A stretch of DNA of 32,000 bases from Mesorhizobium sp. YM1C-6-2 (GCF_003666685.1 NZ_RCIZ01000013.1:97507-129506); one strand, 5' to 3'; shown: positions 10,797 to 24,813, counted from the stretch's first letter. The notes: generated from the sequence alone by a model not told the origin. Program-made: numbers and translations.

Positions 10797-11354
10797 TCAG
10801 TCGCCGGTGGAATAGGGCCTGTTTTCCTCCAGCGGCAGGCCCGCCCTTTCCCAGCCGTCCGCTCCGGGCGGATACCAGATCACCGAGCTGTAGCCCCATT
10901 CGACGGCTCGTTTTGCGGCGTTCCACGACATCCAGCAATTCGTCATGCAGTAGAACAGGATCGGCTTCGACTTGTCCGACGCAGTACCCGCCTCGAGGCT
11001 TTTGCGGAAATATTGGGCGGTCTCCTCGGGGATCGCCCCATAGCCCACATTCGCCAGCCAGATGCTATCGGGGATATCCTCCCTGACCTTGTCCTTCCAT
11101 ATCGTTCCGGCGGGCAGGTTGGCGGGCTTCGGCGTGTCAGGCATCACGTCGAAGAAGACGGCTTTCTTCTCCCGCCAGAGCGCTTCGGCTTCCTTGGTGC
11201 CGATCACCTTCGCCCCTTTCAGCGTATCCGGCACCGGGGCCTTGTATTCTTCCATCCGGTAGTCGGCCGGCTCCTGGACGCCTTCAGCCCACGCCGGCGC
11301 GCCAAAAGCCAGGATCGCCGCCGCCAGAGGCAATGCCAGACAGCTTCTTCGCAT
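10797..11354 (-). CDS. Exported rhodanese-like protein with C-x3-C-W motif (PQQ-dependent-catabolism-associated 'CXXCW motif protein' type)
   Basis: The ATG at 11354 gives 185 aa with signal peptide MRRSCLALPLAAAILAFGAPAWA. It has rhodanese-like size and layout, with FYCMTNCWMSWNAAKRA at codons 134-150 (nt 10932-10949 for C..CW). The start lies 5 nt after the upstream stop. Confidence 0.75.
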   Translation of the reverse strand: MRRSCLALPLAAAILAFGAPAWAEGVQEPADYRMEEYKAPVPDTLKGAKVIGTKEAEALWREKKAVFFDVMPDTPKPANLPAGTIWKDKVREDIPDSIWLANVGYGAIPEETAQYFRKSLEAGTASDKSKPILFYCMTNCWMSWNAAKRAVEWGYSSVIWYPPGADGWERAGLPLEENRPYSTGD

Positions 11355-11359
11355 ATCCG

Positions 11360-12211
11360 TCAAAGGCCCGTGGGGTCGAGCGGCCACTTGTCGGTGAAGA
11401 CCTTGCCGTCGGTGTCGACGGCTTCGACCTGTATGTCGTCGGTGCCGTGCACGGCGAAGTCGAAGCGGAAGTTGGGGTCTTCCGAAATGGAGATGCCGCC
11501 TTCCATGGACAGGATCAGCCTGTCACCCTGCGAGATCGACAGGTTCTGCACGAAATGCGCCGGGATGAAATATTGGGTCAGCGGGTCGCGCTGCAGGCCC
11601 GAATTGTTCGGATGCCGGATCATCAGCTGCAGTTCCTGCGCCTTGGTCATCGATTCCTTCGGCGGCGCGAACTGACGCAGCTTCATCTGCCCCATCGAGG
11701 CCAGCGCTTCCTTCGAGTTCTTGACCGCCGGGGCTGAGCAGCCGCCGGATGCCTTGACGAAGGTCTGCGACATATGGAGCTCGCCGCTGTCGGTCTCGGC
11801 GATCACGCGCAGCCAGGAATAGTCGTTGACGCGCACGCGCGTCGCCAGATGCGTGACTCCGGAGTCCCTGCCGAGCTGGAACGTCGCCGCCACCGGCGCC
11901 GGATTGACGTCGATGACCATCGTCACCGTTTTGACCCCGGCAGCCTTGGCCGGGTCGATATAGATATCGACAGGCACGAGCGCGGCGTCCTGCGCGCGCT
12001 TCGGTGCCTCGATGCGGATGAGCCCGGTGTCGAGGAGAATCGGTCGGTCGCCGAGAACGTCGCCCTTTAGTGCGTTCCAGATCTTCTCCGAGCCTGCCAT
12101 GCTCTGCTGCGCCGCCGCCGGCCCCGCAAAGACGAGCACGCCTCCTGCCGCAGCCGCAAAAAGAAGCGCTGCCACGGAACGCCGCAGCTTACAGAAGATA
12201 TTGGATCGCAT
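11360..12211 (-). CDS. Exported fused SoxY-like/SoxZ-like carrier protein (quinoprotein-dehydrogenase-associated type)
   Basis: The ATG at 12211 gives 283 aa with a signal peptide ending PAAAQQ. The N-terminal half is SoxY-like and ends in KASGGCSAP (Cys codon 11738-11740). The C-terminal half is SoxZ-like: LMIRHPNNSGLQRDPLTQYFIPAHFV...EDPNFRFDF. Confidence 0.8.
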   Translation of the reverse strand: MRSNIFCKLRRSVAALLFAAAAGGVLVFAGPAAAQQSMAGSEKIWNALKGDVLGDRPILLDTGLIRIEAPKRAQDAALVPVDIYIDPAKAAGVKTVTMVIDVNPAPVAATFQLGRDSGVTHLATRVRVNDYSWLRVIAETDSGELHMSQTFVKASGGCSAPAVKNSKEALASMGQMKLRQFAPPKESMTKAQELQLMIRHPNNSGLQRDPLTQYFIPAHFVQNLSISQGDRLILSMEGGISISEDPNFRFDFAVHGTDDIQVEAVDTDGKVFTDKWPLDPTGL

Positions 12212-12303
12212 CGGTGCCTCCACCGGTTCGAAGGTGGTGCCCTGGCACACGCCAAGGATACTACCGGTCCCGCCCGATGGCAAACTTCGCCATGCGTTGC
12301 CGG

Positions 12304-13266
12304 CTATTCCCATTCCAGCTCGGCATAGGCAGCCGTGGCGTTGCGCTCGTTGTAATCGTCGAACAGCGCCCAGTTGGGTGCTTCGCTGCGGCCCGCGGTC
12401 TTGACCGCCTCAGCGAGCGGCGTCCCCTCCTTGATCGCCTGGCGGAGATCAGCGGCAAGCGCCTCGAAATAGCGCCGCTCGGGCTCCAGCGCGGCCGGCC
12501 ATTCGCTCGATATGGGGCCGTGACCCGGCACGACGCGCCGGGCATCGACTGCTGCCAGCGCATCCATCTGGCGTAGCCAGCCGAGCAGCGAGCCGTCGAT
12601 CGTCGGCAGGTGCCCCATGAAGACAAGATCGCCCGCGAAAAATGTCCCGCTGGAAGGATCGAGAACGGTCAGGTCATTGTCGGTATGCGCGGCTTCCCAG
12701 GCCTTCAGCTCGAGCACACGTCCGCCGAGGTCGAGTTCCAGCGTGTCGTCGACCAGCAGCGTCGGCGGCACGATTTTTATGCCTTCCATGAGCTTTGCGC
12801 CGAGCTGTTCCCGGTAGCTCCGCAGATAATATTCCCCGCGCGCTTCGAGCGCCGCCGGCAGGTTTTGGTGACCGACGATCTCAGGACCGAGCGCCTGGAA
12901 GGCCGCATTGCCGAAGATGTGGTCGGGATGCACATGAGTGTTGATCAGGTAGCGCACCGGCTTGGCTGTGACCTCGGCAATCGCATCGATGAAGGCCTGC
13001 GCCTCGACGAGGCTGCCGCCGCTGTCGATGACGGCGACGGCATCGGCGCCGACCACGACGCCCAGATTGCAGATCGCCCCCTCATTCTCCGGATGCATCA
13101 GCTCGTTGACGCCCTGGAAGGCGAAGACGCCGTCGGCGATTTCGCGGAGTGCGAAGTCGGCGTCGGCCGCGGCAAATGCCCGACGGGCGATGCCGCACGA
13201 CAAGGCAGCAACGCCGCAGGAAGCGAGCCCTTTCATCATTCGGCGTCGAACTGGATCGATCGGCAT
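12304..13266 (-). CDS. Exported metallo-beta-lactamase-fold zinc hydrolase (quinoprotein relay system metallohydrolase type)
   Basis: 320 aa. Twin-arginine-like leader PVRRRMMKGLASCGVAAL...AFAA, and HxHxDH motif INTHVHPDHIFGN. GAGG is 11 nt upstream of the ATG, and the start is only 9 nt after the fhcC stop. Confidence 0.85.
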   Translation of the reverse strand: MPIDPVRRRMMKGLASCGVAALSCGIARRAFAAADADFALREIADGVFAFQGVNELMHPENEGAICNLGVVVGADAVAVIDSGGSLVEAQAFIDAIAEVTAKPVRYLINTHVHPDHIFGNAAFQALGPEIVGHQNLPAALEARGEYYLRSYREQLGAKLMEGIKIVPPTLLVDDTLELDLGGRVLELKAWEAAHTDNDLTVLDPSSGTFFAGDLVFMGHLPTIDGSLLGWLRQMDALAAVDARRVVPGHGPISSEWPAALEPERRYFEALAADLRQAIKEGTPLAEAVKTAGRSEAPNWALFDDYNERNATAAYAELEWE

Positions 13267-13275
13267 CTTTCGACC

Positions 13276-14085
13276 TCAGGCCGGGAACAGTATCTCGCCG
13301 AGGCCGAGGGCGGCATTGTCGCCGCCATATCTGCGCGGCGCCCTCCCGAGAAGCGGCCGTTTTAGGATATCCTCGGTGACGAGATGGCGGTCCATGAGCG
13401 CGGCGAAGACGCTGTCCGGCGCTCCGCATTCGACGAAGCTCGGCGACAGGCTTTTCGGCGCGCGGTCGAGTAGGATCGAGCCGCGCCGCATCAGGTAGCC
13501 TGGCATCTCGCCGGCACCGCCGGTCACCACGAGCGTGCCGGCGATCATGCGGCTGCCCGCGTGATCGCCGCAGCCTTTCAGCACTGCGATCAGCCCACGT
13601 CGCATGCGATCGGCCGCGAAGGCGCCTGCCCTGCCACGCACGATCAGCACCCCGCCATTCATGCCGGCGAGTTCGCCTGCCAGCGGCGCGCCGAGATGAT
13701 CACCAGCACTACCGATGATTTCCAGCCTGCCGCCCCGCATGCCCGATCCAGCATGAGGGCCGGCATCGCCTTCAATCGTAAGCTGCCCGCCACGCATGCC
13801 GCGCCCTGCCTGTGCGCCGACATCGCCTGCGACACGCACCGTGCCCTCGGTCATGCCCGTGGCTACCCCGTCGAAACGGCTGCTGCCGCCCTCGAACACG
13901 AGGCTGTTGGCGTTGCTGCCGGCGATGCGGAAAATGTCGCCGACGGTCGACGCAAGCTTCGACTGACCGAGCCGGATGGCCTGGATGGCGCGCTTGTCCA
14001 GCCCCGCCAGCCCTTGTGGTGTCAGCGGCGAAAGGTCGAGGCGCTCGGGCGGCGCAGCGCGCAACGTGAAGGTCAGCGCTTTCAT
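13276..14085 (-). CDS. fhcC: Formyltransferase/hydrolase complex subunit C (formylmethanofuran dehydrogenase subunit C homologue)
   Basis: 269 aa with beta-helix repeats GDVGAQAGRGMRGGQLTIEGDAGPHAGSGMRGGRLEIIGSAGDHLG, typical of FwdC/FhcC. ATGA overlap with fhcD. Confidence 0.9.
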   Translation of the reverse strand: MKALTFTLRAAPPERLDLSPLTPQGLAGLDKRAIQAIRLGQSKLASTVGDIFRIAGSNANSLVFEGGSSRFDGVATGMTEGTVRVAGDVGAQAGRGMRGGQLTIEGDAGPHAGSGMRGGRLEIIGSAGDHLGAPLAGELAGMNGGVLIVRGRAGAFAADRMRRGLIAVLKGCGDHAGSRMIAGTLVVTGGAGEMPGYLMRRGSILLDRAPKSLSPSFVECGAPDSVFAALMDRHLVTEDILKRPLLGRAPRRYGGDNAALGLGEILFPA

Positions 14086-14990
14086 GGCAGCAGATCCTTC
14101 AGATGATAGTGGAACTTGCCTAGCTTGCCGCCATAATTACCGGCGCTGATGCGCAATGCCCCCTTCGCAGACCCCAGTTGGGTGACCGCCTTGATGCCGG
14201 CGCGCATCGCCGACGCCACCGCATCGCTGGTCTCGCCGTCGATGACGATCTCGAGCACCGCGTTGACGTCGGGTTCGAGCTCGCTCTTCGTCACGCCGCG
14301 CAGCGTCGGGGCGAAGGCGTCGTTGGTGGAGGCCGTCATGCCCTTGTACTTGCCGCCGACCTTCGAGCCGGAACGCACGATGCCGCCCGGGAAAGGCATG
14401 ATGGCGCCGCGCACCTCATTGATTGCCGCCACGGCTGCCTCCGCCGCCGCAAGCGCCTTGGCGTTGCTACCGGCGAGCAGCAGGAGGTTGCCGCCGCCGA
14501 CCGCCCCCTTGGTCATGCCGACCGTCGCCTCGCAGACGAATTCGCCGTCCATGACAGGCACGCGCCAGAAATGCCGGCCACCGAGTTTTTTCGAGATCTG
14601 CCAGCCGTCGCCGAAATAACGCAAGGCCGCGCCGAGCTTCAGCTCGTTGGGGCCCTCGAGCCCGGCGAAGCAGGCGCTGCCCGGCGAGGTCAGCACGCAT
14701 TGGCCGACGCGGTTCTGCAACTGCTTCTGCAGTTCGTCCGTGCTCACCGCGAAGATCATGACGCGACAGCCGGGACGGCCGTCTGGCGTTTCAGAGGGCG
14801 CGAGATCGACATCGATCGCTGCCTCGCAGCCGCAGCCGATGACCGAAGTGGCAAAGCCTGTCATCGTAACGGCCGCCTGCCGCGCCCATTTGCGGTTTGG
14901 TGCGGTGATGACGATAGCTGTAGCCCGCATGCCGAAAGCCTCGGCAAAGGTATCGTCGATCGCGACTCCATTGACCTTCAGGCGCGGCAT
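14082..14990 (-). CDS. fhcD: Formylmethanofuran--tetrahydromethanopterin N-formyltransferase (Fhc subunit D)
   Basis: 302 aa. VNGVAIDDTFAEAFGMRATAIVITA...TGFATSVIGCGCEAAID matches the Ftr family N-terminus. 13-nt overlap with fhcA. Confidence 0.92.
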   Translation of the reverse strand: MPRLKVNGVAIDDTFAEAFGMRATAIVITAPNRKWARQAAVTMTGFATSVIGCGCEAAIDVDLAPSETPDGRPGCRVMIFAVSTDELQKQLQNRVGQCVLTSPGSACFAGLEGPNELKLGAALRYFGDGWQISKKLGGRHFWRVPVMDGEFVCEATVGMTKGAVGGGNLLLLAGSNAKALAAAEAAVAAINEVRGAIMPFPGGIVRSGSKVGGKYKGMTASTNDAFAPTLRGVTKSELEPDVNAVLEIVIDGETSDAVASAMRAGIKAVTQLGSAKGALRISAGNYGGKLGKFHYHLKDLLP

Positions 14991-16609
14991 GGCACTTCCC
15001 GGAACGGCTCGTCGCGCTGGATGGCGGAATCGGGGAAGGTGAACCTGTCGAGCGACAGGCCGTAGCGGTGCTCGTGATAATCCCTGAGCCGCTTGACGAT
15101 CGCGCGGTCCGGCGGAGGATTGAGCCGGAGCGCCCTGCCCCAGCGATAATGGGTGATCTCCCCGTCCTTGACGACGAGGTCGCCGTTCTTGAACACCAGC
15201 GCCGCCCGACCGAGCATCTTCGCGATGTCCTTGCCCTTCCGGTAGACCGAAACGTCGGCGACAGCCCCGGCGCCGAGATGCCCCCGATCAGCCAAGCCCA
15301 ATAGTTTCGCAGGAGCGGCTCGTGTCATGATGGCGATCTCCTCCATCGTGTATTCGCGATCGATCGATGCGAGCGTCGAATGCGCCAGCGCCGACTTGGA
15401 GAGCGTCGAGGCCACCTCATTGCGGGCGTCGCGGTTCATCAGAAATTCGAAAAGCTTCGGATAGACGGTGAAGGGGGCGCCGTTCGGATGATCGGTGGTG
15501 AAGAAGACGCGCCACGGATCGGTGATCAGCAGGAAGAGTTCGAGTCCCGCCGCCCATTGCACCGTGCCGTAATAATCCGGGCGATAACGATAAGGCACGA
15601 TGCCGCCGCCATTGCCGTCGCCGTCATGGATGACGAATTTTTTCGGATGCGCTGTGCCGCGTGCGGAGAACTGGCGCATGACATCAGACGAAATGGTGAC
15701 GGTCTGGCCGAACATGACCTGGCCGATGTCGATGGTCACTTCCGGCGACGCATTGACCAACTCAGCCAGCCGCGCGGCGGCGGAGGAGAATTTCCGCTTC
15801 CCCTCGGTGCCATAGCCATAGAACTGGAGGTGCGCGAGATGCAGCGGCACGCCTTCCGCTGCCGCGATCGTCGCCGCTGCCGTGTCGGCCGAACCCGGCG
15901 CGCCGAGATTGTTGCAGTGGACATGCAGCGGATGCGGAATGCCAAGCCTGTCCACCGCCGCCTGCAGCGTCTTGACGATTTTTCGCGAACTGACGCCGTA
16001 GGACGGCACGACGTCGTCGAGCGAGAAGGTCCGCACATTCTCCTTGAAGGCAGCCGCGGCCCCGGCGTTGATGACCTTGACGCCAAGCGCCCGGGTCGAG
16101 GCGACCGTCCAGGCGACGTAATCCTCGATCATGCGTGGCGAGGCATTGTCGCGGATCATCGACAGCAGGAAATCGTCGTTGCCGAGAATGGCGAGCGTCG
16201 CCTTGTCGATGATCGGGATGTCGGCGAGCTCGAGATGGGTGTGAAGCGCAGCATTCGGCGACATCGCCGGCTCGACGACGGTGGTGAAGCCCATCTTCGC
16301 GTAGAGGCAACCGGTCTCGAAGGTCGACCAGCCGGCGTTGGAAAGCGGCGTCGCCGCCGGCCGCGCCTGATGCGCCTTGTGCTCTTCCGGCAGAAGCAGC
16401 CGCGCCGTGTTCACATTGCCGCCGCCGATATGCGAGTGGATATCGATGGCGCCGGCCATGACGACGCAGCCGGACGCGTCGAAGGTTCGGTCGGCACGTC
16501 CGCTACGCGGCGTCTCGACGATCTCCCCGTCCCTGATCCAGAGGTCGCCCTTGCCGAGGCGGCCATTCACCGGATCGACGATCTCGCCGCTCTTGATCCT
16601 GGTCAGCAT
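14978..16609 (-). CDS. fhcA: Formyltransferase/hydrolase complex subunit A (amidohydrolase; FwdA homologue)
   Basis: 543 aa with an amidohydrolase fold: MAGAIDIHSHIGGGNVN is an H-x-H metal site, followed by HLHVHCNNLG. 7-nt overlap with fhcB. Confidence 0.92.
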   Translation of the reverse strand: MLTRIKSGEIVDPVNGRLGKGDLWIRDGEIVETPRSGRADRTFDASGCVVMAGAIDIHSHIGGGNVNTARLLLPEEHKAHQARPAATPLSNAGWSTFETGCLYAKMGFTTVVEPAMSPNAALHTHLELADIPIIDKATLAILGNDDFLLSMIRDNASPRMIEDYVAWTVASTRALGVKVINAGAAAAFKENVRTFSLDDVVPSYGVSSRKIVKTLQAAVDRLGIPHPLHVHCNNLGAPGSADTAAATIAAAEGVPLHLAHLQFYGYGTEGKRKFSSAAARLAELVNASPEVTIDIGQVMFGQTVTISSDVMRQFSARGTAHPKKFVIHDGDGNGGGIVPYRYRPDYYGTVQWAAGLELFLLITDPWRVFFTTDHPNGAPFTVYPKLFEFLMNRDARNEVASTLSKSALAHSTLASIDREYTMEEIAIMTRAAPAKLLGLADRGHLGAGAVADVSVYRKGKDIAKMLGRAALVFKNGDLVVKDGEITHYRWGRALRLNPPPDRAIVKRLRDYHEHRYGLSLDRFTFPDSAIQRDEPFREVPCRA

Positions 16610-17691
16610 GGCAGCTCCGCTCCCGCCGGGATGTGCTCGGCGATCGAGCGTAGGATCGATGCGGCCGACGGCAGTTCCGATGCCGCGTCGGCCGTGACGG
16701 AATTCAGGGTGCCGGTGCGCGCCGAATAGACCACCGCGTCGTGGTCGACGCCTGCCTTGCCGATCGCGAACGTAACCTCGGCGCCGGCGACCGGTTGCGA
16801 TGTCTTCGCGAGCACCACTACCTTGGTGTCGCCGCTATTTGCGGACGGCTTCTTCACACCGTCAGATATCCAGAGGTGGAAATCCGCTTCGCCCGCCGCG
16901 AGCTGTCGCGCCACATCGAAACGCCAGGGGTCGAATTCCGGAAAGCCGCGCGCGAAGCTGGTACGCAGAGGGAATCCCGTCATCCAGGTCGAAGCGAGCG
17001 TGCTGCCCCAGCCACCCTCGCTCGCCGGAAGATGCAGGGCGGACGCGCGTGACTTGCGGTTGATGTCGGCAAGCAGGCCCTGCAGCATCTCCAGCGCGAG
17101 CCCATCGGCGGACTGGCCGAAGAACAGGAAGACCGGGAAACGGGCAGTGGCGAGCGCGGCCTGGAAGCGGCTGAAGTTCGATACCGGCGTCGACACCTGA
17201 CGTCCCGCACATTGCGCACGCAACGCCGCAATCGTTCCGCCTAGACCCGCCTTGCCGCAGGAAAGCCGTGTGGCCTTGCGGCCGTTGCCGAGGGTAAGGC
17301 CTCGCCCCCCGCCGCCGACCAGGAAGAATTGGCGCGCATTGATGGCGATGAGATCGGGAACCGTCTCTGCCAGTTCTGCGACAAACTCCCGATGAGCCTC
17401 TGGCAGTTCGCCGACGATCGCAATCAGGTCGGCGCGCCGGCGCACCTCGCCCGGCGCGACGAACATGCCGCCCTTGTCGGTAAGCAGCGCAGTCTCCCGC
17501 GCCAACCCGGCGCCATCAGCGTGGTCGTATGAGGCCCCTACCCGCTCGGCGAGGGCGATCGCCGCGCGTGTGCCATGTATGTCCGTGTCAAAGGTGAAAA
17601 CCGGGCACCGGCTCGCATGCAACAGCGCGGCGGCATGCCGGACCGCGCGCTCCAACAGAGTCTCCCGGTTGCCGATCCAAGCAACCGTCAT
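16603..17691 (-). CDS. fhcB: Formyltransferase/hydrolase complex subunit B (FwdB-like, non-catalytic)
   Basis: 362-aa ORF coupled to fhcA, in the position and with the size expected for FhcB. The assignment rests mainly on operon context and general resemblance to FwdB-type proteins. Confidence 0.75.
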   Translation of the reverse strand: MTVAWIGNRETLLERAVRHAAALLHASRCPVFTFDTDIHGTRAAIALAERVGASYDHADGAGLARETALLTDKGGMFVAPGEVRRRADLIAIVGELPEAHREFVAELAETVPDLIAINARQFFLVGGGGRGLTLGNGRKATRLSCGKAGLGGTIAALRAQCAGRQVSTPVSNFSRFQAALATARFPVFLFFGQSADGLALEMLQGLLADINRKSRASALHLPASEGGWGSTLASTWMTGFPLRTSFARGFPEFDPWRFDVARQLAAGEADFHLWISDGVKKPSANSGDTKVVVLAKTSQPVAGAEVTFAIGKAGVDHDAVVYSARTGTLNSVTADAASELPSAASILRSIAEHIPAGAELPC

Positions 17692-17791
17692 CCACTATAC
17701 TACTTTCTGGTGCCGGCTCTGATTTTAGACGAAAGCAAGTAGGCCGTGAACCCCCAACGCTGTTCAGATTAGCCGATCTTTCGCCGAGGCA

Positions 17792-18172
17792 TCAATCGTA
17801 CTTGACGTAGGCGAAGCGCTGGTCGCTTGGCGGCGTACCCTCCAGCGCACCGCCTTCCTTGCCCGGCTGCCACTGGACGACATCCTCGATCTTCTTTGCC
17901 AGTTCGAAATCCTTGTCGGTGATGCCTTTTGCCGCATGGTTCATCAACTTTACCTCGACCCACGCGTAGGAGGCAGTGATGTCGGGATGATGCCATGCCG
18001 CTTCCGCCAGATGACCGACCGTGTTGATGACCATCAGCGTCGATTTCCAGCTGTGCGTCTTGTATTTCCTGCGTATCCAGCCGTTTTCATATCGCCAGTT
18101 CGGCAGATCCTTCTGCAGCCGCTCGGCGATCTCGGCCTCCGAATAGACCCTTTCTTTTACCTTCTCGCTCAT
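17792..18172 (-). CDS. Pterin-4a-carbinolamine dehydratase (PCD/DCoH)-like protein
   Basis: The ATG at 18172 (GGAG 7-10 nt upstream) gives 126 aa. GHLAEAAWHHPDITASYAWVEVKLMNHA contains the PCD HHPD signature. A ~25-aa C-terminal tail extends beyond the usual domain. Confidence 0.85.
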   Translation of the reverse strand: MSEKVKERVYSEAEIAERLQKDLPNWRYENGWIRRKYKTHSWKSTLMVINTVGHLAEAAWHHPDITASYAWVEVKLMNHAAKGITDKDFELAKKIEDVVQWQPGKEGGALEGTPPSDQRFAYVKYD

Positions 18173-18195
18173 CTCGATCTCCACGGCGTGTCCGG

Positions 18196-24158: not shown

Positions 24159-24306
24159 ATTTCATTCGTGGGAGCAGTGCTTCCACGGCTATCTAGCCAA
24201 CCGGTCCGGTCAGTCCGGACGCTGCCAACAAGGATAGTCGTCCATCGAGCGCCCGCTCGGTTGCGGCGTCTTTGGACTCCATAATTTTGTCTTGGAGGAA
24301 ATTGGC

Positions 24307-24813
24307 ATGGCTAAAATCTCGAAAGTGATGGTCGGTGAATCGCTGGTCGGCGACGGCAATGAAGTCGCCCATGTTGACCTGCTCATCGGACCGCGGGGGA
24401 GCGCAGTCGAAGCGGCCTTTTGCAATGCTCTCACCAACAACAAGGACGGCTTTACATCGTTGCTGGCGGTGATTGCACCGAACCTTCAATGCAAGCCCAA
24501 CACGGTGATGTTCAACAAGGTGACGATCAAGGGCGCCAAGCAGGCCGTCCAGATGTTCGGCCCGGCCCAGCATGCGGTCGCAAAGGCCGTCCAGGACGCC
24601 GTTGCCGAGGGAATCATCCCCGCCAACGAAGCCGACGACGTCTTCATCTGCGTTGGCGTGTTCATCCACTGGGATGCCGCGGACGACGCCAAGATCCAGC
24701 AGTACAACTACCAGGCGACGAAGGAAGCCATCCAGCGCGCGGTCGAGGGCAAGCCCACCGCCGCCGAGGCGACCGCGCAACGGGACCAGGTGAAGCATCC
24801 TTTCGCGGCCTAG
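24307..24813 (+). CDS. fae: Formaldehyde-activating enzyme (5,6,7,8-tetrahydromethanopterin hydro-lyase)
   Basis: 168 aa from the ATG at 24307 (GGAGG at 24294-24298). [32 protein letters not shown]...[24 protein letters not shown]...VQMFGPAQH...[18 protein letters not shown] is near-colinear with Methylobacterium Fae as I recall it. Confidence 0.95.

What the first reader, a model, noticed from the sequence alone, without database searches (positions are those of the whole stretch)
10797..13266. Uncharacterised three-gene periplasmic carrier-thiol module (MBL hydrolase / fused SoxY-SoxZ carrier / rhodanese-like Cys protein) appended to fhcBADC
Seen in sequence: three consecutive minus-strand genes each encode an export signal. 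These are a twin-arginine-like RRRMMKGL in 12304-13266, and Sec-like leaders ending AAAQQ and AWA in the other two. Gene 1 has the HxHxDH zinc site (HVHPDH). Gene 2 is a single chain with a SoxY-like half ending in SGGCSAP and a SoxZ-like half (LMIRHPNNSGLQRDP...IPAHF...NFRFDF). Gene 3 is rhodanese-sized and carries FYCMTNCWMSW. Established knowledge: SoxYZ carries intermediates covalently on the cysteine of a GGC arm. The MBL fold includes glyoxalase II thioester hydrolases and persulfide dioxygenases. Rhodaneses shuttle sulfane sulfur. Family-level names exist for such genes next to PQQ dehydrogenases, but I know of no experimentally defined reaction. Inference: this is a periplasmic protein-tethered thiol relay. 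One concrete hypothesis is a protein-bound analogue of the glutathione-dependent formaldehyde route: carrier-S-hydroxymethyl is oxidised by a quinoprotein to carrier-S-formyl, which the MBL enzyme hydrolyses to formate. Alternatives are persulfide or methanethiol handling, or redox maintenance of a quinoprotein.
Basis: partly seen in the sequence, partly recalled or inferred. Interest (0 to 1): 0.7.

Follow-up and report, generated by a model that had tools for sequence, protein, structure and literature searches.

The report
XoxF accessory thiol-carrier genes, relocated
These three exported proteins are the already-named but never-tested helper set that normally surrounds the rare-earth methanol dehydrogenase genes xoxFGJ. 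In this Mesorhizobium those genes have dropped out, leaving the helpers welded onto the formaldehyde-oxidation operon fhcBADC.

Summary
Three consecutive minus-strand genes encode a Tat-exported binuclear-zinc MBL hydrolase, a Sec-exported fused SoxY-SoxZ carrier with one Cys (SGGCSAP), and a Sec-exported rhodanese-fold protein (FYCMTNCW). All three pass NCBIfam cut-offs: TIGR04559, TIGR04557 and TIGR03865, the "quinoprotein relay system". The source record (Mesorhizobium sp. YM1C-6-2) already carries that name for the hydrolase. No paper I found gives an experimental function.

What is new is the context. In 68 of 80 related species the order is MBL, carrier, small 4-Cys protein, xoxF, xoxG, xoxJ, CXXCW, and 65 of those also have pqqB downstream. 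Here and in three relatives the small protein and xoxFGJ are gone, and the three genes follow fhcC by 9 bp. They remain under purifying selection (dN/dS 0.10-0.15).

Several observations tie the three together and to XoxJ/XoxF:
- Azospirillum independently joins the MBL-carrier pair to H4MPT genes.
- Fusion proteins exist: carrier-MBL, carrier-CXXCW and XoxJ-CXXCW.
- The carrier Cys is kept in 122 of 123 distant representatives.

A covalent adduct on the carrier Cys, released by the hydrolase, is the best-supported general mechanism. What the adduct is remains open: aldehyde-derived, a thiol/disulfide maturation intermediate, or a sulfur species. This is a new member of a known but uncharacterised kind, of moderate interest.

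The parts
12304..13266 (-). SoxH-related metallo-beta-lactamase-fold zinc hydrolase, 320 aa (TIGR04559, 'quinoprotein relay system zinc metallohydrolase 2'). Tat signal MPIDPVRRRMMKGL...AFA|AA. Metal ligands H111, H113, D115, H116, H194, D213, H249.
   Evidence: 410.6 bits, cut-off 280; PF00753; the twin-arginine motif is conserved in homologues; ligands H111, H113, H116, H194, D213 and H249 are invariant in 81 homologues, and D115 is kept in at least 95%; exact match to RLP22682.1 of Mesorhizobium sp. YM1C-6-2.
13225..13248 (-). Twin-arginine motif RRRMMKGL of the hydrolase
   Evidence: translation. [ST]RRxhhK-type motif in Phyllobacteriaceae, Sphingobium and Paracoccus homologues.
12919..12936 (-). 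HVHPDH metal-binding motif of the hydrolase
11360..12211 (-). Fused SoxY-SoxZ-like carrier, 283 aa (TIGR04557). Sec signal ends AAA|QQ. Cys158 is the only Cys of the mature protein. The open frame runs up to 12313, but the start at 12211 fits the homologues and a GGAGG.
   Evidence: 279.2 bits, cut-off 140; PF13501 + PF08770. AlphaFold pLDDT 83.5. SoxY TM 0.80-0.84, SoxZ 0.77.
11729..11749 (-). Carrier arm SGGCSAP with Cys158 (codon 11738-11740)
   Evidence: aligns with the SoxY arm Cys of 2OX5/2OXG. Cys kept in 122 of 123 representatives; lower model confidence at residues 151-170.
10797..11354 (-). Rhodanese-fold 'PQQ-dependent catabolism-associated CXXCW motif protein' (TIGR03865), about 185 aa. 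Sec signal ends AWA|EG. The open frame runs up to 11387.
   Evidence: 215.4 bits, cut-off 128; PF00581 at 23.9 bits; aligns with YgaP around its catalytic Cys..
10932..10949 (-). CMTNCW (C-x3-C-W) active-site loop of the rhodanese-like protein
   Evidence: both Cys and the Trp are invariant in 75-77 homologues.
13276..17691 (-). fhcB (16603-17691), fhcA (14978-16609), fhcD (14082-14990) and fhcC (13276-14085): the formyltransferase/hydrolase complex of the H4MPT formaldehyde-oxidation pathway. It lies directly upstream and is probably in the same transcript.
   Evidence: TIGR03129/03121/03119/03122; 9-nt gap between fhcC and the MBL gene; same order in L001 and L004.
17722..17750 (-). Sigma-70-like promoter match upstream of fhcB (a consensus match only)
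12255..12283 (-). Sigma-70-like promoter match in the 92-bp gap between the MBL and carrier genes (a consensus match only)

Best explanation
These are the accessory proteins of a lanthanide-type PQQ alcohol dehydrogenase (XoxF): the NCBIfam 'quinoprotein relay system' hydrolase 2, its SoxYZ-like carrier, and the CXXCW rhodanese-like protein.

Origin of the arrangement (shown by comparison). In most Phyllobacteriaceae the order is MBL, carrier, small 4-Cys protein, xoxF, xoxG, xoxJ, CXXCW, usually followed by pqqBCDE. In the lineage of this window the segment from the small protein to xoxJ has been removed cleanly. The three remaining genes now sit at the end of the fhcBADC operon, and they are still under purifying selection.

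How it most likely works (inferred):
1. All three proteins are exported to the periplasm.
2. The single Cys of the carrier sits on a flexible GGC loop at the position of the SoxY swinging arm. It forms a covalent adduct.
3. The binuclear zinc hydrolase removes the adduct hydrolytically. This is the role SoxB plays for SoxYZ.
4. The rhodanese-like protein uses its catalytic Cys and a second Cys four residues on. It loads or resets the carrier thiol by thiol/disulfide or sulfane-sulfur exchange, and it links the relay to XoxJ/XoxF.

Nature of the adduct (weakest step). I lean slightly towards an aldehyde-derived adduct: a hemithioacetal oxidised to a thioester, giving formate in the C1 case. The reason is the repeated linkage to formaldehyde-oxidation genes. 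This step has no direct evidence.

Confidence by level: about 0.9 for the identity and the origin of the arrangement, about 0.5 for the general carrier-adduct-hydrolase mechanism, and about 0.3 for an aldehyde-derived adduct. The overall figure of 0.5 refers to the general mechanism.
For: Identity:
- All three proteins score above curated cut-offs.
- The source record names the hydrolase the same way.

Context:
- 68 of 80 species loci have MBL-carrier-..xoxFGJ..-CXXCW, and 75 of 80 have xoxF downstream of the carrier.
- Eight loci outside the Phyllobacteriaceae show the same neighbours.
- A conserved 117-aa 4-Cys gene follows the carrier in 80 loci but is absent here.
- The window holds no xoxF, xoxG, xoxJ or pqq.

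Retained function:
- dN/dS against L001 is 0.10 (MBL), 0.15 (carrier) and 0.10 (CXXCW), similar to 0.08-0.22 for the fhc genes.
- The same arrangement is found in L001, L004 and L090. L044 is an intermediate form.

The three act together and with XoxJ:
- Carrier-MBL fusions P0233 and P0302, and carrier-CXXCW fusion P0240.
- XoxJ-CXXCW fusions in L094 and in A. brasilense.

Covalent carrier:
- The Cys aligns with the SoxY arm Cys.
- It is kept in 122 of 123 representatives and is the only mature Cys in 105 of 122.
- The fold matches SoxY and SoxZ.

Hydrolase and rhodanese-like protein:
- The full metal site is kept: six ligands invariant in 81 of 81 homologues, D115 in at least 95%.
- The rhodanese catalytic Cys position and the second Cys are invariant.
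- The nearest named relative of this rhodanese domain is a rhodanese/DsbD fusion.

Link to formaldehyde oxidation:
- fhc operon here; H4MPT genes directly upstream of MBL-carrier in two Azospirillum species.
- adhC-fghA next to the set in Sinorhizobium and Salipiger.
- fae and H4MPT genes flank it in Methylocystis and L098.

Expression: the P. putida homologue PP_2678 is co-induced with PedE/PedH (PMC9795978).
Against: - No experiment defines any reaction for these proteins.
- RB-TnSeq in P. putida gave minimal phenotypes, though without lanthanides (PMC12997753).
- The oxidant needed for a hemithioacetal-to-thioester step would be the PQQ dehydrogenase. It is not in this window, and I could not find it for this genome.
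- The system also accompanies ethanol-type dehydrogenases, so it is not C1-specific.
- In the two carrier-MBL fusion proteins the MBL domain has lost its metal ligands, so hydrolysis is not universal.
- Genome linkage to C1 genes may only reflect a shared methylotrophy island and co-regulation.
- The hydrolase is closer in sequence to B1/B2 beta-lactamases (54.7 bits) than to glyoxalase II (18.7 bits).
Confidence: 0.5

Rival explanations
1. Maturation or redox upkeep of the dehydrogenase. The Cys proteins (CxxxC rhodanese-like, carrier, small 4-Cys protein) form a thiol/disulfide relay. Working with the chaperone XoxJ, the relay makes or repairs the vicinal Cys-Cys disulfide ring or the PQQ site of XoxF/PedH. 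The hydrolase clears a dead-end adduct.
For: - XoxJ-CXXCW fusion proteins occur in two lineages.
- MxaJ, the XoxJ homologue, is the PQQ-insertion chaperone, and the disulfide ring forms on PQQ loading (PMC12276312).
- XoxF in the related loci has the vicinal CC and the DYD lanthanide signature.
- Several secreted Cys proteins are conserved in the cluster.
- A review reports that the set tracks lanthanide-type enzymes and is absent from P. aeruginosa (PMC12997753).
- The rhodanese domain's nearest named relative is fused to DsbD.
Against: - It gives no clear role to a conserved binuclear zinc hydrolase or to a SoxYZ-type carrier.
- Calcium-type enzymes have the same disulfide ring without this set.
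- In this window the three genes are kept under selection with no xoxF, xoxG or xoxJ nearby, and are tied instead to fhc.
Confidence: 0.28
2. Sulfur-compound handling, as in the Sox system. The carrier binds a sulfane or thiosulfonate group, the SoxH-like hydrolase releases it, and the rhodanese moves sulfane sulfur. The purpose would be to protect PQQ enzymes from nucleophilic sulfur species, or to use methanethiol or persulfide.
For: - All three folds come from sulfur-oxidation families.
- SoxH was proposed to release sulfate from SoxY in Sulfurimonas (cited in PMC11237559).
- Thiosulfate inhibits growth of H. denitrificans on methanol (cited in PMC12997753).
- An XoxF homologue has been reported to couple tetrathionate to glutathione (cited in 10.1101/683490).
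Against: - No soxXA, soxB or soxCD was seen in the annotated or Pfam-labelled loci I read, or among the genes scanned in the window.
- The carrier fails the true-SoxY cut-off (58.6 bits against 125) and the true-SoxZ cut-off (58.7 against 76).
- The Dahl group concluded that the H. denitrificans gene set belongs to alcohol catabolism. The neighbouring pmpAB genes are not thiosulfate-regulated (PMC11582611).
Confidence: 0.12
3. The three genes are a decaying remnant of a deleted xoxF cluster with no present function.
For: - xoxFGJ and the small Cys protein are missing from between the carrier and CXXCW genes.
- No XoxF from this strain or from CAU 1732 appeared among the 120 best XoxF clusters.
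Against: - All three reading frames are intact.
- dN/dS is 0.10-0.15 at dS 0.5-1.1 against L001, the same as for the fhc genes.
- All catalytic and carrier residues are kept.
- The spacing is tight and operon-like.
- The arrangement is shared by at least four genomes.
Confidence: 0.03

Closest known systems
NCBIfam 'quinoprotein relay system': TIGR04557 SoxYZ-like carrier, TIGR04558/TIGR04559 zinc metallohydrolase 1/2, TIGR03865 CXXCW protein (for example P. putida PP_2677, PP_2678, PP_2666)
   Same: All three proteins score above the curated cut-offs. They have the same domain make-up, export signals and motifs (GGCSAP, HxHxDH, C-x3-C-W). The function is equally untested.
   Different: No PQQ dehydrogenase, xoxG, xoxJ or pqq gene lies within the 32-kb window. 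The genes sit at the end of fhcBADC, and the usual small 4-Cys neighbour is missing. P. putida has the type-1 hydrolase in the order carrier then MBL; here it is type 2 in the order MBL then carrier.
SoxYZ-SoxB thiosulfate-oxidation carrier system (Paracoccus pantotrophus; PDB 2OX5, 2OXG, 4UWQ)
   Same: The SoxY and SoxZ folds are shared (TM 0.77-0.84). The Cys lies at the homologous arm position after a GG pair. The logic of a carrier plus a metallohydrolase is the same.
   Different: The carrier is one fused chain, so the arm is an internal loop (GGCSAP...) rather than a free C-terminal GGCGG. It scores below the true-SoxY and true-SoxZ cut-offs. The hydrolase has an MBL fold (SoxH-like), not the SoxB fold. 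No SoxXA or SoxCD partners are present. The genomic context is alcohol and C1 oxidation.
Glutathione-dependent formaldehyde oxidation (Gfa, AdhC/FlhA, FghA) and glyoxalase II
   Same: The proposed chemistry is shared: thiol plus aldehyde gives a hemithioacetal, this is oxidised to a thioester, and the thioester is hydrolysed. Glyoxalase II is an MBL-fold thioesterase.
   Different: The thiol here would be a protein Cys in the periplasm, and the oxidant is unknown. FghA is a serine esterase, not an MBL. The hydrolase scores only 18.7 bits against GloB (cut-off 200.8). adhC-fghA coexist with this set in Sinorhizobium and Salipiger, so the set does not simply replace them.
MxaJ/XoxJ chaperone-assisted maturation of PQQ methanol dehydrogenases
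   Same: CXXCW is normally encoded next to xoxJ and is fused to it in two lineages. All partners are periplasmic.
   Different: No xoxJ lies in this window. No role for a thiol carrier or a zinc hydrolase has been described in MDH assembly.

Membership tests
[quoted passage not shown] | Whole-protein HMM score above the curated cut-off (140 bits) | tested here: met
   279.2 bits, E 1.9e-83
[quoted passage not shown] | Single chain with a SoxY-like half followed by a SoxZ-like half, with the carrier Cys between them | tested here: met
   PF13501 at residues 85-192 and PF08770 at 224-309 of the 317-aa ORF. Cys aligns with the SoxY arm Cys. Model matches SoxY and SoxZ.
[quoted passage not shown] | Encoded next to a PQQ-dependent (quinoprotein) dehydrogenase | tested here: not met
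   No xoxF, xoxG, xoxJ or pqq in the 32-kb window. Met in 75 of 80 related species loci. The rest of this genome could not be searched.
TIGR04559 quinoprotein relay system zinc metallohydrolase 2 | HMM score above the cut-off (280 bits), and higher than for type 1 | tested here: met
   410.6 bits against 194.5 bits for TIGR04558
TIGR04559 quinoprotein relay system zinc metallohydrolase 2 | Complete MBL binuclear metal site (HxHxDH, H, D, H) | tested here: met
   H111, H113, D115, H116, H194, D213 and H249 are present. Six are invariant in 81 homologues and D115 is kept in at least 95%.
TIGR04559 quinoprotein relay system zinc metallohydrolase 2 | Zinc content and hydrolytic activity | not testable with these tools
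   Needs purified protein.
TIGR03865 PQQ-dependent catabolism-associated CXXCW motif protein | HMM score above the cut-off (128.05 bits) | tested here: met
   215.4 bits, E 4.2e-64
TIGR03865 PQQ-dependent catabolism-associated CXXCW motif protein | Conserved two-Cys-Trp motif | tested here: met
   FYCMTNCW. The spacing is C-x3-C-W in all 77 homologues. C147, C151 and W152 are invariant.
Canonical Sox thiosulfate-oxidation carrier SoxY/SoxZ | Score above the TIGR04488 (125 bits) and TIGR04490 (76 bits) cut-offs, with a C-terminal GGCGG arm | tested here: not met
   58.6 and 58.7 bits. The arm is an internal GGCSAP.
Canonical Sox thiosulfate-oxidation carrier SoxY/SoxZ | Partners soxXA, soxB and soxCD in the locus | tested here: not met
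   The family scans of the window's genes named no sox gene.
Glyoxalase II / hydroxyacylglutathione hydrolase (TIGR03413) | HMM score above the cut-off (200.8 bits) | tested here: not met
   18.7 bits
Rhodanese sulfurtransferase (PF00581) | Rhodanese domain with Cys at the active-site loop position | tested here: met
   PF00581 at 23.9 bits, cut-off 22.2. FYC aligns with FHC of YgaP.
Rhodanese sulfurtransferase (PF00581) | Sulfane-sulfur transfer activity | not testable with these tools
   Needs an enzyme assay. The second Cys in the loop may point instead to thiol/disulfide chemistry.
Subclass B1/B2 metallo-beta-lactamase | Score above the NF033088 (200 bits) or NF033087 (240 bits) cut-off | tested here: not met
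   54.7 and 32.2 bits

The most novel reading that the evidence does not exclude
The three proteins form a periplasmic, protein-tethered route for aldehydes; in the C1 case, formaldehyde to formate. The carrier Cys captures the aldehyde made by a PQQ dehydrogenase. The adduct is oxidised to a thioester and the zinc hydrolase releases the acid. This would be a third formaldehyde-handling system beside the H4MPT and glutathione routes. It would explain why the genes have been joined to H4MPT or fhc operons independently in Mesorhizobium and Azospirillum.
Probability: 0.2. Interest if true: 0.8.

Novelty: new member of a known kind. Interest (0 to 1): 0.45.

Why it matters
Homologues of the carrier number in the thousands: about 7,300 clusters at 90% identity with E at or below 1e-10. 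They accompany lanthanide-dependent methanol and ethanol dehydrogenases in methylotrophs, rhizobia, Azospirillum, Pseudomonas and marine symbionts. No reaction is known for them.

If they detoxify or oxidise periplasmic aldehydes, models of methylotrophic carbon and energy flow lack a step. If they mature XoxF or PedH, they are needed for heterologous expression of these enzymes.

This window adds a natural dissection of the cluster. The three genes are kept together under selection after xoxFGJ was removed, and they are co-transcribed with fhc. The fusion proteins found here also give a wiring diagram to test: MBL with carrier, carrier with CXXCW, and CXXCW with XoxJ.

Tried and rejected
1. 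Finding xoxF elsewhere in the source genome.
- The exact-protein look-up of the carrier failed.
- Walking off the window ends gave only unrelated genes or nothing.
- A search with the nearest XoxF listed 120 clusters at 82-97% identity. None is named for YM1C-6-2 or CAU 1732, including the members of ten multi-member clusters.
- This is a weak negative, not proof of absence.

2. AlphaFold of the hydrolase from a single sequence gave pLDDT 38 and was discarded. No homologue search was left to build an alignment.

3. PDB by sequence. The closest hydrolase entry is 8D2Z, an unannotated MBL-superfamily protein that reads SHYHAVR in place of the HxHxDH motif. Next is chlorothalonil dehalogenase 6UXU. 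I found no paper on 8D2Z, so neither gives a functional lead.

4. Terminator and promoter scans gave only weak consensus matches.

5. Rfam and tRNA scans of the window found nothing.

6. Rejected readings:
- A true Sox system: cut-offs not met and no sox partners.
- Beta-lactamase or glyoxalase II membership: far below cut-offs.
- A decaying remnant: ruled out by dN/dS and intact motifs.
- A lanthanide-binding role for the carrier thiol: considered only from general chemistry (thiols are poor ligands for hard lanthanide ions) and not pursued.


Full report
**1. What is in the sequence**

Three consecutive minus-strand ORFs lie at 12304-13266, 11360-12313 and 10797-11387. GC at the third codon position is 0.78-0.81, as in the neighbouring real genes.

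The NCBIfam scan places all three above curated cut-offs:
- TIGR04559, 'quinoprotein relay system zinc metallohydrolase 2': 410.6 bits, cut-off 280.
- TIGR03865, 'PQQ-dependent catabolism-associated CXXCW motif protein': 215.4 bits, cut-off 128.

Pfam adds Lactamase_B, SoxY + SoxZ, and a borderline Rhodanese match. Exact-sequence look-up shows that the window comes from Mesorhizobium sp. YM1C-6-2, from a contig of 129,506 bp. GenBank already gives the hydrolase this family name.

**2. Corrections to the gene models**

- The carrier most likely begins at MRSNIF (12211). Homologues are 282-289 aa and a GGAGG lies 7 nt upstream.
- The third gene most likely begins at MRRSCL (11354), 5 nt after the carrier's stop.
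- fhcC's stop is 9 nt from the hydrolase start.
- The hydrolase's 320-aa start is the right one. The twin-arginine motif is conserved in homologues from Phyllobacteriaceae, Sphingobium and Paracoccus. The 310-aa RefSeq model removes it.
- The carrier and the rhodanese-like protein have conserved Sec-type leaders ending in AxA.

**3. Key residues**

- Carrier. Cys158 aligns with the arm Cys of P. pantotrophus SoxY. A scan of 1.84 billion representatives gave 659 relatives at E no greater than 1e-10. Of 123 aligned sequences (the window's carrier plus 122 full-length representatives at 31-58% identity), 122 keep the Cys in a GGC context. In 105 of the 122 representatives it is the only Cys of the mature protein.
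- Carrier model. An AlphaFold model built on 51 sequences has pLDDT 83.5. Confidence dips at residues 151-170, the arm and linker. Foldseek matches SoxY (TM 0.80-0.84) and SoxZ (0.77).
- Hydrolase. H111, H113, H116, H194, D213 and H249 are invariant in 81 homologues, and D115 is kept in at least 95%.
- Rhodanese-like protein. C147, C151 and W152 are invariant. The spacing is C-x3-C-W in all 77 homologues read, despite the family's name. The first Cys aligns with the catalytic Cys of the rhodanese YgaP. The only other named relative is a rhodanese/DsbD fusion.

**4. Surroundings in the window**

- Upstream on the same strand are fhcB, fhcA, fhcD and fhcC.
- Downstream is dusA, which is unrelated.
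- The plus strand from 18322 carries H4MPT pathway and cofactor genes: beta-RFAP synthase, mtdB, mch, fae at 24307-24810, and others.
- No xoxF, xoxG, xoxJ or pqq gene lies in the 32 kb.

**5. The same genes elsewhere**

A scan of one genome per species returned 80 loci, all Phyllobacteriaceae. The census gave the following:
- 68 loci have the order MBL, carrier, about 1 kb, xoxF, xoxG, xoxJ, CXXCW. In 65 of these pqqB follows.
- 75 loci have xoxF downstream of the carrier.
- The 1-kb gap holds a conserved, convergently oriented gene. It encodes a secreted protein of about 117 aa with four Cys. It is found in 80 loci, including S. meliloti and Azospirillum, but not in the window or in L001.

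The fhcBADC-MBL-carrier(-CXXCW) order is seen only in four places:
- the window;
- L001, Mesorhizobium sp. CAU 1732, with 85%, 86% and 76% identity for the three proteins;
- the short MAG contig L004;
- probably L090, which shows dusA followed by the start of the CXXCW gene.

L044 looks like an intermediate: fhcBADC, carrier, small protein, xoxFGJ, CXXCW, with no MBL within 10 kb.

The window's 'module' is therefore what remains of a xoxF cluster after clean loss of the four genes between the carrier and CXXCW. It now lies against fhcC. It is not decaying. dN/dS against L001 is 0.10, 0.15 and 0.10 at dS 0.5-1.1, the same range as the fhc genes.

**6. Wider taxa**

- S. meliloti pSymB and Salipiger: CXXCW-xoxJ-xoxG-xoxF-cyt c-fghA-adhC, then MBL2 and the carrier.
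- Methylocystis parvus: fae genes, then CXXCW-xoxJ-xoxG-xoxF, divergent from MBL-carrier.
- Five metagenomic or MAG loci have the same neighbours. One of them has H4MPT genes and fae directly downstream.
- Azospirillum ramasamyi and A. brasilense: MBL2-carrier-small protein follow directly after H4MPT genes. xoxF lies about 20 kb away. fhcBADC itself is followed directly by the ABC-transporter genes that usually accompany PQQ dehydrogenases.
- A second subtype (hydrolase 1, in the order carrier then MBL) sits with ethanol-type PQQ dehydrogenases and PedF. It occurs in Sphingobium, Paracoccus pantotrophus, A. lipoferum and P. putida (PMC12997753).

Linkage to formaldehyde-oxidation genes thus recurs with both the H4MPT and the glutathione routes. 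Across the whole family the common denominator is a PQQ alcohol dehydrogenase of the lanthanide type. The related XoxF proteins carry the DYD signature and the vicinal Cys-Cys.

**7. Fusion proteins**

- Among the distant representatives, P0233 and P0302 are carrier-MBL fusions and P0240 is a carrier-CXXCW fusion.
- XoxJ-CXXCW fusions occur in L094 (453 aa) and in A. brasilense Sp7 (438 aa).
- Together these give a chain: MBL, carrier, CXXCW, XoxJ.
- Caveat: in the two carrier-MBL fusions the MBL domain has lost HxHxDH and D213. There it probably only binds.
- Some fusions come from metagenome gene calls and could be artefacts.

**8. Literature**

I found no experimental function.
- A 2026 review of the ped cluster calls PP_2666, PP_2677 and PP_2678 poorly characterised. 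It reports minimal RB-TnSeq phenotypes under lanthanide-free conditions. It proposes disulfide formation or cofactor stabilisation, or protection of PQQ from sulfur nucleophiles (PMC12997753).
- The Dahl group noted the Sox(YZ) fusion and SoxH in H. denitrificans. They concluded that the ensemble belongs to a PQQ alcohol dehydrogenase. The neighbouring pmpAB genes do not respond to thiosulfate (PMC11582611).
- Lucinid-symbiont work notes soxYZ fusions next to an ADH, xoxF and soxH (PMC11237559).
- PP_2678 is co-induced with PedE and PedH on octane (PMC9795978).
- MxaJ is the PQQ-insertion chaperone, and the disulfide ring forms on PQQ loading (PMC12276312).

**9. Mechanism**

Shown:
- export signals on all three proteins;
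- a conserved carrier Cys at the SoxY arm position;
- an intact binuclear metal site;
- a two-Cys rhodanese loop;
- physical and functional coupling of the three, and of CXXCW with XoxJ, through fusions and synteny;
- retention under selection without adjacent xoxFGJ.

Inferred:
- the carrier Cys bears a covalent adduct;
- the hydrolase removes it, by analogy with SoxYZ-SoxB (established knowledge; Sauve et al. 2007, as cited);
- the rhodanese-like protein loads or resets the thiol.

The identity of the adduct is open. My rough split is:
- aldehyde-derived adduct: about 0.3;
- thiol/disulfide maturation or repair of XoxF/PedH: about 0.28;
- sulfur species: about 0.12;
- decaying remnant: about 0.03;
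- something else: the rest.

The window's own contribution favours a role that does not need xoxFGJ next door and that is co-expressed with the formate-forming end of formaldehyde oxidation. I could not establish whether this genome has a PQQ dehydrogenase elsewhere.

**10. Verdict**

The specific formaldehyde scheme remains one of several live hypotheses. The proteins are members of families that are already defined and annotated but uncharacterised.

The novel elements are:
- the gene arrangement without xoxFGJ, joined to fhc;
- the independent Azospirillum linkage to H4MPT genes;
- the set of fusion proteins;
- the unnamed 4-Cys partner.

Interest is moderate (0.45).

Noticed in passing
L003 10788-11141 (-); L002 10781-11131 (-); L084 9748-10107 (-); absent from the window: A secreted protein of about 117 aa with four conserved Cys (DYPT..YV.GCM.ANG..C.CSIDVIAS...AQ.EA...CF). 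It is encoded convergently right after the carrier gene in 80 loci: Phyllobacteriaceae, S. meliloti and Azospirillum. It has no family name, and it is missing in the window and in L001.
   Followed up: partly
L094 3458-4819 (-); L095 17373-18689 (-): Single proteins that fuse a XoxJ-like binding protein to the CXXCW rhodanese-like domain: 453 aa in L094 and 438 aa in A. brasilense Sp7. NCBI names the A. brasilense one only as a substrate-binding protein.
   Followed up: yes
P0233, P0302 (carrier-MBL fusions); P0240 (carrier-CXXCW fusion): In the carrier-MBL fusions the MBL domain has lost the metal ligands (THSRAEF in place of THVHPDH, Gly in place of D213). It is probably a non-catalytic binding domain.
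   Followed up: partly
L003 7900-8541 (+); L092 2403-3047 (+); L094 2801-3445 (+): A secreted protein of about 213 aa with 'DWPC' and 'YVCE' motifs recurs in xoxF clusters, including 24 loci in the tblastn. It is absent from the window and has no family name.
   Followed up: no
window 10932-10949 and 77 homologues: The family is named 'CXXCW', but every homologue read here has three residues between the two Cys (C-x3-C-W).
   Followed up: yes
window 13237-13266: The RefSeq model of the hydrolase (WP_183097221.1, 310 aa) starts 10 codons later than the GenBank model. This removes the conserved twin-arginine export motif.
   Followed up: yes
L044 5480-15729: A Mesorhizobium MAG has fhcBADC, carrier, small Cys protein, xoxFGJ, CXXCW, with no MBL hydrolase within 10 kb. 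It looks like an intermediate or alternative rearrangement of the same island.
   Followed up: partly
L095 3077-11638: In A. brasilense Sp7, fhcBADC is followed directly by genes for an ABC transporter and a beta-propeller protein of the kind that accompanies PQQ dehydrogenases (pedA1A2BC-like). This is a second case of xox accessory genes appended to fhc.
   Followed up: no
window 17792-18184 (-): A pterin-4a-carbinolamine dehydratase-like ORF lies just upstream of fhcB. A gene of this kind lies between the beta-RFAP synthase gene and fhcB in L001 and in A. brasilense as well.
   Followed up: no
window 24307-24810 (+): The formaldehyde-activating enzyme gene fae is present. I had scanned the opposite-strand ORF at 24193-24798, which matched nothing. 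With mtdB, mch and fhcBADC, the window holds the whole H4MPT oxidation route.
   Followed up: yes
window 1-32000: No tRNA gene and no Rfam family at gathering score anywhere in the window.
   Followed up: yes
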